64,000 nt of DNA from Octopus vulgaris (lineage: Eukaryota): assembly GCA_951406725.2 (NCBI GenBank), contig OX597825.1, positions 31,744,001 through 31,808,000 on the forward strand, written 5' to 3'. Of the stretch, positions 1 to 53,339 are shown in pieces. The notes below the pieces were generated by a model. It was not told the origin of the DNA. It made no database searches and worked only from the letters and a program-made list of their open reading frames with translations. A program made the position numbers and the translations under genes. Numbering within the stretch: position 1 is the first letter of the stretch; each line of letters begins with the position of its first letter.

Positions 1-47
<47 letters not shown>

Positions 48-309
48 ATGATGTGTGTGTGTGTGTGTGTTTTCACAGACAGATGACTGCACTGGTATGG
101 GCTTGTGATATGATAGAGATTGAATGCTGGAATGATAAGTTGTGTGTTTTGTTGGGTTGGTGAAGAGTAAAGATGGAAATGGAAGACCAAGGAAGGTGTG
201 AGGATGTGGGATGAAGTGGCTAAGTCAGATCTCTTAATGCTTGGCTTCTCTCATCAGATGATGAAAGATCGAGATAACTGATGCTATGCTGTATTGCAGA
301 CCCATTAAC

Positions 310-21385: not shown

Positions 21386-21580
21386 GATATATATATATAT
21401 ATACGTTTAAATATTTGTTGTGCAAGATTTTTTATGTGAAGTCGTGTGTTGAAACAGATATTGTTATATTTCGGAATGGTCATTTTGCCAGTTTAGCCAA
21501 TAAAAACACACGCACTATATATTTGGTGTTACTTTGCTACAGTGTTATTTATTTTTTACATTAATCTTAATCTTATTTCA

Positions 21581-21624
21581 GCCAGAGTTCTTTCGTCACA
21601 CTCCTGTGACCGCATCAGTGGTCC
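21581..21624 (-). ncRNA. Minimal type I hammerhead-like motif in the PLE 3' region (variant core)
   Basis: CCA-CUGAUGCG-GUCAC(AGGAGU)GUGAC-GAAAGAACUC-UGG. Confidence 0.55.
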
Positions 21625-22019
21625 TTTGTTTTCTTCTCACTTATTTGTGTCTCTCCTTACTAACCGTCAGCCATTTTGTATTTCTATTGTATGTCTTCAT
21701 TTGTGCATGCTTATATCTCTATGTGCGTTTATGTTTATTTAGTGTGTGTATGTGGGGGATGCCTGTAATATTTGTATCTTCTGTTTATATATGTTCATGT
21801 AATTTGTAATTTTATATGTTCATGTAATTTGTAATTTTATATGTTCATGTAATTTGTATTTTGTATTTTGTATTTTGTTTTTTGTTTTTGTTTATTCTTA
21901 TTTTGTTCATGTGTTTACATCCACCCATTATTATCATTACATATGCTTGTATGTATGTATGTATGTATGTATGTATGTATAACAACAATACTAGTAATAA
22001 TAATAATAAATTGAATCGA

Positions 22020-22123
<104 letters not shown>

Positions 22124-22197
22124 CACATATATATATATATATATAGTTATTTATTTATTTATCTGTGTATTTATTATGTTTTCAGGATCCTCTATCG

Positions 22198-23256
22198 TCA
22201 TATGTTGTGGTGTGTGTTAGTGCTCCATTCTAGTTTTCTATTCAGGCTAGGTTTATTTTCTATTATGTGTGTAGCTTCTGTAATTTGTCTAATTGTTGCA
22301 TTTGATCTATGTGTGGATAATATTTTAATTTCTATGTTATTGATTGATCCCCCGTGTTCTTGTTCAGCGTGTTGGTACAGAATCGATGAGCTTTTACCTT
22401 CTTTGAGTTGTCTCCAATGCTCATTTACCTGCTCTCCTATGCTTCTTGCCGTTTCCCTTACGTATGTCGTTGTCTTGTTACTGCATCGTCCCTCTATACA
22501 TCTTATACTATAGACTACATTTCTGGCTTTACAGTTTGTTTGTGGGCTAAATCTACATACAGTACAGTACCTATCTGTACAGGGGGTTCTACTAAAAGGA
22601 TAGGTTCTACCAATTATAGATTTGATAGGGTTGCCTGGCTTTTCAACAACCTTAATTCTTAGCTTAAGTTTGTCTAGGGTCCTTCTAAAGCGATACGCCA
22701 GTTCACCTCCAGGGGTGGTGTCAACGAACATGACACTCTGGTATTTATGGCTATCATACCAAGAGTTGGCCTTCCCTATTTTCTTTTTTGTCCTTTCTAT
22801 AGTGTTCCATGACTTGTTCCTATAGAGTGGGCAAATACCATTCTTATCATTACATAATATATTATCAAATTTCTTAATGGTTCCTTTGTATACTCTGATC
22901 CTTTCTTTATGGCTGTAACCTGAGAACTGCATGCGGTGAATGAAATATTGTATGTGTCTCTTTAACTCTGTGGGCTCGCACATGCATGACACATTTCTCA
23001 TTATTCTGACGAGGTCTGCCATCAAAATATTGAATTTGGCATTGTCCGCAATGGCTGAGTTCCAGTGGATCAAGTATTTTGAGGCCATAGGTTTGGCATA
23101 GTATGAATGAAGGATTTGGGTTTTATTATTCACAATTTCTAGCCAGAGTTCAGTGTCTAGTACTGGTAGTCTATGGTTGGGGTGTTTAGTGGGGTAGTCT
23201 ATTGTGACCTTAATACTCTGGTGGATGGAGTTAGCTATTTGCTGGATGCTCTCCAT
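22198..23256 (-). pseudogene. PLE RT thumb + Cys-rich linker + GIY-YIG endonuclease
   Basis: LPVLDTELW, YYAKPMAS, CTDRYCTVC...C, NVVYSIRC...YVRET...EH...HAEQEH; out of frame with the RT ORF by one nucleotide. Confidence 0.92.
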
Positions 23257-23273
23257 AGTATTAGTTTCTATTA

Positions 23274-25256
23274 CTATATCAACATTACTCTCTTGTGGGG
23301 TGCCTTTACCACTATGTTGATATCATCAACATAGCGAGAGTACATGTTTACGAGTATGGAATTCTGTGTTAGGCGTTCTTTAAGCCTTCTGTCCCACCAT
23401 ACCATGAAAAGGTTGGCCACATCACCAGCAATACTAACGCCGATGGCTGCCCCCTCGTCCTGGGCATATATTTTATTATTAAACTTAAACGTGTGGCCTT
23501 TTAGGGTAATTCTTATACTAGCTCCTAGTGCATGTGCGATCATTTTCTTTATCAGATGGACATTTGCGGGGCTCCGTATGGCTCTGGTCCATCCACGCCA
23601 TCTTTCTATATGTGTCTTCCTAGCCATAGAAGTAATTGTGGGCGGTCTACCTCTTAAACATCTACTGGGGCAGAAACTACTAAGATTATGTTTATCTAAG
23701 TATTCAGTATTACATGTCAGTCTAAGTAGGGGGCCCAGTTCTTCTGTGTTGACATTACAGAACTCCACCTGGCTCTCATTGATCATCTCCACGCACTTCT
23801 CCACCGCAAAATCTACGTCGATCGATGGGTATAGGGATACCACATCCATGCTACCCACCATACATCCTGTCAGGTCACAAGTGCTGTTACAGTCATCGAT
23901 CCTGCTGAGGAGATCTTCTGTGCTGTCACAAACATCAGGTGACATCTGGATTATAGGGCGTATGATCATTGAGAGGAAGTAGGAGATTCTGTAATTGCTA
24001 GCGATATTCGCTCCACAGACTGGTCTTGTTATTGGTCCTGCTATAGGGTCAGTAATTATTTTATGGTCCTTGCGAAGTCCATACAGTGCCGGGATATCAT
24101 TGTTCCAGGCTTGGAAATTATTTCCTGTATGTTTCTGGGGTCCCAGAACAATAGTCCACATCATCATGTGGGCATTGAGGACCTTTTCTCTCTCCTCATG
24201 TGCCTGTACAGTTGTTATCTTTGTATTGGCGATATGAGGTTGTATTGCCTGGATGTAGTTCGGTAAGCTGTCTATTGACATCCTGCCAGACTTATCTGTG
24301 GGAAGGCATACCACCTCTCCGTTCCTCGTGCGCTGAATGGGCTTATGTAGGCCACATGCAGGTTTAATCCCGAGTTGTTGTGCCTCTGTCTTATTCTGTC
24401 TCTGTCTCTTAGTGTATAATCCTAAAATCTGTCTAAGTTTGGTCCTAGCTATAGTGAACTGTGCTTCCATGTGGTCATTATTATCTCTAGGGATGTAGAC
24501 TCTTTTGTTGAAGGGTAATGTTGTTGGATAAATCCGGTTCATGCAGTAAGTTTTGTCACATACGTTGAAGAATTGAGTGTCAAAGGGGTGGGTATACATG
24601 TCAATGGTCATTCTAGGGTTATCTTCATTATCGTTACTGTTTCCATCATCAGCCTGCCTATTATTATTACCACCATTACCACTACTACTATTATTACTAT
24701 TACCACCACAACTACCATCATTACTACTTCTACTATTACCACCACCACTACTACTACCACTATTATTGTTATTACCATTATTCCTACCATTGCCATTATT
24801 ACTATCATCGCTAGTGATATTTTCATTGTTCCTGTTTCTGGTGTATGTGTTGTTCATATTAGTGTTGGGTTTTATGTCTGTCTGTTGGTTCCTGTCATTC
24901 CCTCTATTGTGGTTGTTATTTTTGTTCCTACGAGTATTGTTATTATTATCTGTTTCAAGTCTACTGACTCCCTGTCCAAGGATCCTGTTGCATTCAACTA
25001 TATTTTCCATCGTGACCCCCATGACACAACTTTTATTTGTGTCTTTGTGACTATGGTTATCTGTGTGTGTGTTTGTGTGTCGGTTCTCCCTATAATTGTT
25101 GTTGTTGTTGCTGTTGTATATGATTTTTTTCTCTCTGTTTATGTTTTTGTATTTGTATCTATTGTTTGTGTCTATGCATTCATTTTTTCTTTTGTTGTTG
25201 TTGTTGCCGCTGTTAGGGTTCGTGTTGTTTTTGTTGCTACGGTTGTTATTGTTATT
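23274..25256 (-). pseudogene. PLE reverse transcriptase with Asn-rich N-terminal region
   Basis: PTDKSG, PALYGLRKDHK, RPV, GSMDVVSLYPSID, QDEGAAIG, YSRYVDD. Confidence 0.95.
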
Positions 25257-25634
25257 AAAGCCAGAAATGTAGTCTATAGTATAAGATGTATAGAGGGACG
25301 ATGCAGTAACAAGACAACGACATACGTAGGGGAAACGGCAAGAAGCATAGGAGAGCGGGTAAATGAGCATTGGAGACAACTCAAAGAAGGTAAAAGCTCA
25401 TCGATTCTGTACCAACACGCTGAACAAGAACACGGGGGATCAATCAATAACATAGAAATTAAAATATTATCCACACATAGATCAGATGCAACAATTAGAC
25501 AAATTACAGAAGCTACACACATAATAGAAAATAAACCTAGCCTGAATAGAAAACTACAATGGAGCACTAACACACACCACATATGACGATAGAGGATCCT
25601 GAAAACATAATAAATACACAGATAAATAAATAAA

Positions 25635-25673
<39 letters not shown>

Positions 25674-26264
25674 ATATGTATATGTATATATATGTATATA
25701 TATATATATATATTTTTTTTTTCGATTCAATTTATTATTATTATTACTAGTATTGTTGTTATACATACATACATACATACATACATACATACATACATAC
25801 ATACAAGCATATGTAATGATAATAATGGGTGGATGTAAACACATGAACAAAATAAGAATAAACAAAAACAAAAAACAAAATACAAAATACAAAATACAAA
25901 TTACATGAACATATAAAATTACAAATTACATGAACATATATAAACAGAAGATACAAATATTACAGGCATCCCCCACATACACACACTAAATAAACATAAA
26001 CGCACATAGCGATATAAGCATGTGCAAATGAAGACATACAATAGAAATACAAAATGGCTGATGGTTAGTAAGGAGAGACACAAATAAGTGAGAAGAAAAC
26101 AAAGGACCACTGATGCGGTCACAGGAGTGTGACGAAAGAACTCTGGCCGAAATAAGATTAAGATTAATGTAAAAAATAAATAACACTGAAGCAAAGTAAC
26201 ACCAAATATATAGTGCGTGTGTTTTTATTGGCTAAACTGGCAAAATGACCATTCCGAAATATAA

Positions 26265-26270
<6 letters not shown>
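25257..26270 (+). repeat. Inverted pseudo-LTR (copy of endonuclease end + 3' UTR)
   Basis: Near-perfect reverse complement of 21458-22530, with scattered substitutions and microsatellite length differences. Confidence 0.97.
26104..26148 (+). ncRNA. Hammerhead-like motif, second copy in the inverted pseudo-LTR
   Basis: GGACCA-CUGAUGCG-GUCAC/GUGAC-GAAAGAACUC-UGGCC. Confidence 0.55.
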
Positions 26271-52031: not shown

Positions 52032-52989
52032 GCACCAGTGTTATCCAAGGGAAAGACAAAGGTCGATACAGGGCACGTGACGTGAACTCATTTCACAGCT
52101 GAGTAGCTGGAGCACGTGAAAAGTCTTTGCTCAAGAACAACACGCAGCGGTCGATCGAACTCACAACCTCGTCGTAGCTCGACGCTCTAACCACTGAGCC
52201 ATGCGCCTATATATATATATATATATATATACATACAGGTACTGAACCTCTTATCCGGCAACCTTGGGACCAGAGGTGGTTTGGATTTCTGGATTTTCTT
52301 GATTTCTGGACACAGGCCTTTTAGACATGGTAATACATAAAAATTATAATAAATTAAGACAAATAACTACTTAATTGTAAGAGGAGGGCTTCTACACAGC
52401 AGCAGTCACACAGGAACTGGCATCATGTGATGCATACACCATGGAAACCAAAACAAAGCAGCTGCACAGTGAACTGTGAAATTCAAAACTAACCAGATTT
52501 CTGGTCATTCTGGATTACCAAAGGTCTCAGTCACTAGTCATTACCTCTGTGAGGTTCAAAGTTTGAAGATAATGCTTCACCACCTTGTCCCATGTCTTCC
52601 TACCACAGGTTCCCCCCACAGTTAGAGATCAACACTTCTTTACACAACTGTCCTCATCCATACGCATCACATGAACATACAAGTGCAGTCGTCTCTCTTG
52701 CATACACATATATTAATATTTTGCTTAAACATTGTCATGCTAATAACCTGGTGTTAGAACTCAATAAACTTATGCTTCAAGAAAGCATTAATAGAGTACA
52801 GAGCATAATAAGAGACAATATGATTGACAAAGGAACAAAAAAATTATGTAATATTCTTCTATAGCTTACTGATGTTTCTGCTATGAGATGCAATATACTC
52901 ATAGTTGAGTGCTTGTGTATCACCTTAAAGCTCTGTCAGAGCTTCAGAAACATGTAGGTATGCAATTTATGTATATATAATCATCATTT

Positions 52990-53319
52990 TTCGTTTTGGG
53001 ATTTGGTTTGCAAGATTCTTTATATGAGTTTGTGTGTTGAAGCATATTCTGTTGTGTCTGGGGAGAGTCATTCTCTTTTAGTGCCTTATTATTTAACACA
53101 CTCACAGGTAAAATTTCCACTTATTTCTTATTTTTTTTTTTCTAAAATTTTCGTTGCATCTTGCAACCTTTTCGACTATTGAAAAGGTTGCAAAATGCAA
53201 CGAAAATTTTAGAAAATAAAAAATAAGAAATAAGTGGAAATTTTACCAATGAAAATTTTAGAAAATGTGTTAAATAATAAGGCACTAAAAGAGAATGATT
53301 CTCCCCAGACACAACAGAA
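52990..53319 (-). mobile_element. Miniature PLE-derived fold-back insertion with 12-bp TSD
   Basis: TSD taatcatcattt (52978-52989 / 53320-53331); arms 53046-53173 / 53181-53320; unduplicated tail homologous to the big PLE tail at 21404-21465. Confidence 0.85.
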
Positions 53320-53339
53320 TAATCATCATTTCATATCCA

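What the first reader, a model, noticed from the sequence alone, without database searches (positions are those of the whole stretch)
52978..53331. TSD-flanked mini-PLE with a U3-A8 compensatory hammerhead variant
Seen: 12-bp TSD; tail tgcaagattctttatatgagtttgtgtgttgaagcatatt aligns with the big PLE tail tgcaagattttttatgtgaagtcgtgtgttgaaacagatatt; at the turn CUA-UUGAAAAG-GUUGCA(aaa)UGCAAC-GAAAAUUU-UAG (53176-53212). Established: hammerhead positions 3 and 8 pair, so C3-G8 to U3-A8 is compensatory. Inference: a related PLE family keeping the same 8-nt-core fold, which supports function of both variants and a conserved tail signal.
Basis: partly seen in the sequence, partly recalled or inferred. 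Interest (0 to 1): 0.7.

Follow-up and report, generated by a model that had tools for sequence, protein, structure and literature searches.

The report
Truncated Penelope retrotransposon, known hammerhead variant
This is one of thousands of short, fold-back fragments of an ordinary Penelope-type jumping gene; it carries a predicted self-cutting RNA motif of an already published variant, and its 'tail' matches the start of the element's own protein-coding gene.

Summary
In detail: a 13-bp target duplication flanks two head-to-head arms, and the + strand folds into a minimal hammerhead. It is not a separate mini-element. It is a 5'-truncated insertion of a Penelope-like family (family B; 4,599 exact motif matches) whose long copies encode RT plus GIY-YIG endonuclease about 55-60% identical to the big element's family A. 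Between A and B, five hammerhead pairs change on both sides, none breaks. The U3-A8 core is already published for Schistosoma PLEs (UUGAAAAA; PMC4209133) and is reported active in vitro (PMC3088659). The tail similarity is real (0 of 5,000 shuffles) but the tail is ORF codons 10-27, and its synonymous sites are no more conserved than the ORF body (p=0.81), so it does not show an RNA signal. This copy is likely dead: one arm lacks half the core and the arms pair with each other. One lead remains: family-B 5' ends stop just upstream of the ribozyme (26 of 30), not at the predicted cut. No empty site was obtained. The scan's earlier notes shown for this genome concern other hammerhead families.

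The parts
52977..52989 (.). Target-site duplication, left copy (13 bp)
   Evidence: exact direct repeat; family control
52990..53044 (-). 'Tail' (55 nt): ORF nucleotides +28 to +82, present on this arm only
   Evidence: homologous to codons 10-27 of the intact 1312-aa frame of subfamily A'
52990..53071 (-). First 27 codons of the family-B ORF (MTLPRHNRICFNTQTHIKNLANQIPKR), ATG at 53071
   Evidence: 19 of 27 residues identical to family A
52990..53173 (-). Tail-bearing arm of the pLTR; starts at core G5, so it lacks stem I 5' strand, U3 and U4
53174..53321 (+). Inverted arm of the pLTR, from GACTA to ORF +27 (ATG at 53295); no tail
53176..53212 (+). Minimal type I hammerhead: stem I CUA/UAG, core UUGAAAA + extra G, stem II 53187-53201, GAAA, palindromic AAUU stem III, U17; predicted cut 53209|53210
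   Evidence: consensus and relatives in PMC4209133 supplement
53248..53265 (+). 18-nt segment that replaces 6 nt of the arm and copies the element's own sequence near the hammerhead 3' end
   Evidence: (I5)
53319..53331 (.). Target-site duplication, right copy; first 3 nt shared with the arm end
21400..26270 (-). Comparator: big 5'-truncated family-A PLE with RT and GIY-YIG frames, inverted 3' copy, C3-G8 hammerheads at 21621 (-) and 26107 (+), ATG of its tail at 21483

Best explanation
The 355-bp insert is a short head-to-head fragment of an endonuclease-bearing Penelope-like retrotransposon family, likely made by target-primed reverse transcription from uncut RNA, and it carries a predicted minimal hammerhead of the published U3-A8 kind. 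Shown: two arms, a 13-bp duplication, thousands of relatives, long relatives with RT and GIY-YIG frames, arm ends at ORF +27 and +82, and double-sided changes in the hammerhead between families A and B. Inferred, by analogy with the anole Poseidon element (PMC11167929): the protein nicks both strands of AT-rich DNA 13 nt apart, primes cDNA at two internal RNA sites (+27 and +82, the gap being the tail), both cDNAs stop near the hammerhead's 5' edge and are joined head to head. Inferred: in the master element the hammerhead would cut slowly, as a dimer through the AAUU palindrome or with protein help; this copy would not, because its arms pair with each other.
For: 40 of 40 scored places match at 94-100% (1,122 candidates); 4,599 exact 22-nt motif matches, control 0. 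Long copies run from RT through endonuclease to the same hammerhead and tail (L412, L415, L416; L061, L062); amino-acid identity to A' 53-59% over 682-793 codons, Met/Trp matches excluded. Linker C-x4-C-x2-C precedes the GIY-YIG-like motif in both families, the Neptune/Nematis mark in PMC8557442. In 21 of 26 insertions with an inverted partner one arm ends at +77..86 and the other at +20..28; in the other 5 the partner alignment stopped earlier. A vs B, read: stem I C-G to U-A, C3-G8 to U3-A8, stem II C-G to U-A and A-U to G-C, 15.2-16.2 G-C to A-U; six pairs unchanged, none broken. Published S. mansoni PLE core UUGAAAAA and oyster AUUU stem III with 3-bp stem I. Stem II closing-pair probability is 8e-13 in the whole insert, 0.53 in the right arm alone.
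Against: No cleavage assay and no raw RNA reads. No empty site. No family-B copy was seen in which codon 27 runs on into the ORF; the coding reading for B rests on homology with A'. The covariation is one two-family comparison on a structure drawn to fit both. Pfam gave only a sub-cutoff RVT_1 hit for the window's RT and none for the intact A' protein; the clade was not tested with a tree.
Confidence: 0.85

Rival explanations
1. The short copies come from a separate non-autonomous master (a SINE- or retrozyme-like derivative of the pLTR that starts just upstream of the hammerhead) mobilised in trans by a PLE protein.
For: 26 of 30 motif matches taken in genome order have their 5' end at -10..+7 (G of GACTA = 1), against 1 of 30 in family A; only 4 of 100 inverted arms pass -7. 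Retrozymes are argued to derive from pLTRs (bioRxiv 10.64898/2026.07.22.740005, abstract, introduction and part of methods read).
Against: No tandem arrays of the short unit were seen in the fetched loci; short and long copies share the same variants (TAGG/TAGA, only 4 long copies); arms carry the ORF start and end at the same +27/+82 sites as long copies.
Confidence: 0.1
2. The hammerhead cuts in vivo and the cut RNA is the main template, so genomic 5' ends mark the cut.
For: 2 of 30 copies begin exactly at the predicted cut (position 37); in family A 5 of 7 junctions begin within 4 nt upstream of or at the cut (read by eye).
Against: Of 98 inversion junctions (first 100 of 207 listed, 2 near-duplicates dropped) only 8 can start at 37; 28 of 80 start at 34-37 against a simulated null of 22 +/- 4, P about 0.10. 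19 of 30 copies start upstream of or at the core's G5. PMC11167929 found no reads ending at the cut in anole.
Confidence: 0.08
3. The insert is a MITE or fold-back DNA element, and the hammerhead is a chance reading of the hairpin turn.
For: The arms form a near-perfect hairpin (-195.9 kcal/mol, z -25).
Against: The motif lies in single, non-inverted copies too, is continuous with RT/endonuclease frames and sits at the homologous place in family A; arm ends are asymmetric.
Confidence: 0.02

Closest known systems
Minimal hammerheads of metazoan PLE pLTRs, including the U3-A8 variant of Schistosoma Cercyon elements (Cervera and de la Pena 2014, PMC4209133; parts 1-2 of 4 of the text and parts 1-2 of 3 of supplementary file 2 read; file 1 not searchable)
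   Same: 8-nt 5' core with an extra base between 9 and 10.1, G10.1-C11.1, 3-bp stem I, palindromic 15.1-16.1 without loop, U17, U3-A8 (S. mansoni(4) UUGAAAAA), pairs of motifs on opposite strands from truncated copies
   Different: Extra base is G (published consensus H, though the Nasonia row has G); host lineage and PLE clade are not among the rows read; in family B the motif sits at the 5' wall of most copies
Poseidon element PAc of Anolis carolinensis (Frangieh et al. 2024, PMC11167929; parts 1-2 of 4 and passages read)
   Same: Two internal RT start sites inside the ORF start define the tail; AT-rich targets; uncut RNA as template
   Different: PAc starts lie 111-118 nt into the ORF and its ORF begins inside the hammerhead; here starts are at +27 and +82 and the ATG is 104 nt after the core; linker zinc finger points to Neptune/Nematis
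Adineta vaga Penelope elements (Arkhipova et al. 2013, PMC3846280; passages read)
   Same: Inverted pLTR, tail on one arm, pLTR plus tail covering the first ORF codons, 8-10-bp TSD, palindromes at the inverted junction, N-rich ORF segments
   Different: Tail 55 nt rather than 31; far higher copy number
Metazoan non-LTR retrozymes
   Same: Short, non-coding, hammerhead-bearing, pLTR-related
   Different: Retrozymes are head-to-tail tandems; this is a head-to-head pair with ORF start, tail and ORF-bearing long relatives

Membership tests
EN+ Penelope-like elements | RT followed by C-terminal GIY-YIG endonuclease in one ORF | tested here: met
   Family-B long copies align to A' residues 519-1298 and 48-245 (L412); A' has an intact 1312-aa frame. 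No intact family-B ORF was found.
EN+ Penelope-like elements | pLTR with inverted 5'-truncated copy and a tail at one end | tested here: met
   21 of 26 inverted insertions have one tailed and one tail-less arm
EN+ Penelope-like elements | Target-site duplication | tested here: met
   13 bp here; 12 of 27 vs 5 of 702 control; empty site not seen
Neptune/Nematis clades | Cys zinc-finger linker between RT and EN | tested here: met
   C-x4-C-x2-C in both families; criterion from PMC8557442 passages
Neptune/Nematis clades | Placement on an RT tree with named references | not tested
   No reference sequences were fetched
PLE minimal hammerhead (type I) | Core CUGANGA/GAAA/NUH or covarying U3-A8, extra base before G10.1-C11.1 | tested here: met
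   UUGAAAA-G, G10.1-C11.1, GAAA, U16.1-U17; conserved in 18 copies; covaries with family A
PLE minimal hammerhead (type I) | Palindromic 15/16 region allowing dimer stem III | tested here: met
   AAUU; self-duplex -3.6 kcal/mol; the dimer MFE instead exchanged stem II strands, so the active dimer fold is not predicted to dominate
PLE minimal hammerhead (type I) | Self-cleavage after position 17 | not testable with these tools
   No assay; genomic 5' ends show no pile-up at the cut
Non-LTR retrozymes | Head-to-tail tandem units, each with a hammerhead, no ORF-bearing parent | tested here: not met
   Head-to-head arms and ORF-bearing long copies

The most novel reading that the evidence does not exclude
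Most family-B copies are 'strong-stop'-like products: reverse transcription primed at ORF +27/+82 near the 5' end of the transcript runs off at a transcription start about 7 nt upstream of the hammerhead. The genome would then record thousands of insertions made from RNA whose ribozyme had not cut, mapping the start site and showing that cleavage is dispensable for, or opposes, insertion in vivo.
Probability: 0.35. Interest if true: 0.45.

Novelty: new member of a known kind. Interest (0 to 1): 0.2.

Why it matters
As filed, little: the architecture, the tail and the U3-A8 core are all in print. It adds a pair of sister families in one genome (C3-G8 and U3-A8, about 60% protein identity, subfamily A' with intact ORFs) that could be assayed side by side for the open question of what PLE hammerheads do. 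The sharp 5' wall just upstream of the ribozyme is a cheap, testable hint that uncut RNA is the template.

Tried and rejected
Rfam at E<=5 over the window listed no hammerhead family among the best 150 of 255 rows; at the finding only hairpin miRNA models below cut-off. Tail as RNA-level signal: no excess synonymous conservation; this does not exclude a signal at the two start sites. Cut-site pile-up: not significant. Cap-derived extra G at the wall: 9 of 24 arms stopping at -7 are preceded by G, about 5 of them untemplated by eye, near chance. Empty site: one contig of organism E follows the left flank to 52979 and then runs into unrelated sequence; the three other runs laid nothing; one search was swamped by repeat copies. 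No RNA holder listed; all runs were contigs. Genome-wide covariation by pattern: U3-A8 cores outside family B gave 281 matches vs 323 control, C3-G8 706 vs 116; these patterns fix the pair, so they cannot show covariation, and mismatch combinations were not counted. A tblastn of A' against those loci linked none of the extra families to a PLE ORF. Luense et al. 2017 on small PLE hammerheads is not held; it may list this motif. Search 'hammerhead C3U G8A' found 0 papers; 'hammerhead U3-A8' found only PMC4209133; 'octopus Penelope hammerhead' listed 4 papers, none on this family by title. No protein homologue search or tree was run.

Full report
Observation. The window reads as described. An exact 13-bp repeat lies at 52977-52989 and 53319-53331. 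Between them two arms face head to head and fold into one long hairpin (-195.9 kcal/mol). The tail aligns with the big element's tail at score 51, above all 5,000 dinucleotide shuffles (maximum 36) and above every other tile of the window. A simple hammerhead descriptor found three places in 64 kb: 53176 (+) and the two pLTRs of the big element. The 42 nt around 53176 fold, as MFE, into stem I and stem II.

The family. A search of the own genome (2.8 Gb; the host is probably a cephalopod, an inference from repeat content and earlier scan notes) gave 1,122 candidates, the 40 scored being 94-100% identical. A 22-nt motif has 4,599 exact matches, control 0; an insertion can hold one or two. Walking upstream led through about 570 nt of UTR into endonuclease and RT frames, all broken in the copies seen, 53-59% identical to the big element's family with Met/Trp matches excluded. 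So the 'mini-PLE' is a 5'-truncated copy of an autonomous-type family (B), sister to family A. Both have a C-x4-C-x2-C linker before the GIY-YIG-like motif, which PMC8557442 (passages) gives as the mark of Neptune and Nematis; I ran no tree.

Anatomy of this copy. Aligned with relatives the junction is clean at 53173|53174. The tail-bearing arm (minus strand) begins at core G5 and so has no complete hammerhead. The inverted arm (plus strand) begins at the family's GACTA and holds the full motif. The sixth pair of stem II is a private change (C in 16 of 18 copies). In a read-through transcript the closing pair of stem II has probability 8e-13, against 0.53 for the arm alone, so this copy is likely inert.

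The tail. In three intact copies of subfamily A' the tail lies inside a 1312-codon open frame, at its start. The mini-element's end translates to MTLPRHNRICFNTQTHIKNLANQIPKR against MTIPKYNNICFNTRLHIKNLAQQIFKR in A. Mismatches fall 5/5/13 on codon positions 1/2/3. Among identical residues 10 of 18 codons are identical, against 218 of 418 in the ORF body (p=0.81); amino-acid identity is not higher either (p=0.43). The similarity therefore needs no RNA signal. What is conserved is where insertions end: near ORF +27 and +82, with one of each in 21 of 26 inverted insertions. That matches the two internal RT start sites shown for anole Poseidon (PMC11167929) and the ORF-overlapping pLTR and tail of rotifer elements (PMC3846280).

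The hammerhead. A and B were paired by protein homology and position, not by their cores. A reads CCA CUGAUGCG GUCAC..GUGAC GAAA GAACU C UGG; B reads CUA UUGAAAAG GUUGC..GCAAC GAAA AUU U UAG. Of eleven pairs (three in stem I, 3-8, five in stem II, two in stem III) five change on both sides and none breaks. This is good evidence of selection on the fold, with the caveat of one comparison on a fitted structure. It is not new: Cervera and de la Pena describe U3-A8 in Schistosoma PLEs (about 1,300 hits), the extra base before stem II and opposite-strand pairs; their supplement lists UUGAAAAA and an oyster motif with the same AUUU end. Perreault et al. (PMC3088659, section 8) report natural U3-A8 covariation and cite earlier in vitro activity. 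Other small families with UUGAAAAG cores and their own stems exist in this genome, unlinked to an ORF so far.

Does it cut? Numbering G of GACTA as 1, the cut is predicted at 36|37. In 30 copies chosen by sequence downstream of the motif, 2 start at 37 and 17 at -10..+8. In 98 inversion junctions there is no peak at 37 (8 compatible; 28 of 80 at 34-37 vs null 22 +/- 4, P about 0.10). Instead there is a wall: 11 of 100 inverted arms end at -7 and 4 go beyond (the pattern allowed up to 30 nt), and 26 of 30 motif matches in genome order start at -10..+7 (three pairs are two arms of one insertion, one more may be a longer copy with a small deletion). Family A lacks this wall (1 of 30), with a possible cluster at -53..-63 (7 of 30). 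A transcription start at about -7 would explain it, since priming at +27/+82 near the RNA's 5' end would run off there; a non-autonomous master, or snap-back at the AGTC-AA-GACT palindrome (-5..+4, visible in several junctions), are alternatives. The cap-G test was inconclusive and no raw RNA reads were available.

TSD. Family support is strong (12 of 27 vs 5 of 702), but the empty site was not seen: one related organism has different sequence after 52979.

Verdict. Real, correctly spotted, ordinary: a new member of a known kind. Interest 0.2. The 5' wall is the one lead worth a follow-up.

Noticed in passing
L118, L119, L120 (G000 C1, C22, C17) and the list: A young subfamily (A') of the big element has intact 1312-codon frames and dozens of copies with the same bit score across many contigs, so it is probably active or recently active; the ORF has a long Asn-rich segment like rotifer Penelopes.
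   Followed up: partly
window 21621 (-) and 26107 (+): Family A's hammerhead has C at position 9 (CUGAUGC-G) instead of the canonical A9, a larger departure than U3-A8; 3,320 exact motif matches; position 17 is C in A and U in A'.
   Followed up: partly
L145, L171, L172; L170, L173-L175, L180; L147, L183: Three further small repeat families with a UUGAAAAG core, their own stem I/II and palindromic stem III, ending next to (TA)n in several copies; no ORF link found.
   Followed up: partly
L185-L214: Several C3-G8 hammerhead families elsewhere in the genome (706 pattern matches vs 116 control), two of them large.
   Followed up: no
L176, L178: Family-B variants with a double change in stem II (GCUGC/GCAGC for GUUGC/GCAAC), a within-family compensatory pair.
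   Followed up: no
window 53248-53265: An 18-nt templated segment replaces 6 nt in the right arm, copying sequence from the hammerhead 3' side; likely a template switch in the hairpin.
   Followed up: no
window 52979, run X8 (organism E): A related organism shares the left flank and then carries different sequence from 52980, possibly an independent insertion at the same (TA)-rich spot.
   Followed up: no
L382-L411, about 20 nt upstream of the family-A core: A GTAAGT splice-donor-like word sits just upstream of the hammerhead in A', recalling the 5'-UTR intron of D. virilis Penelope (recalled; not tested).
   Followed up: no
window 23274-23322 and 25256: The big element is 5'-truncated, has a frame break between RT and thumb/endonuclease, and a 1-kb inverted copy of its 3' end; it sits in (TA)n.
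   Followed up: partly
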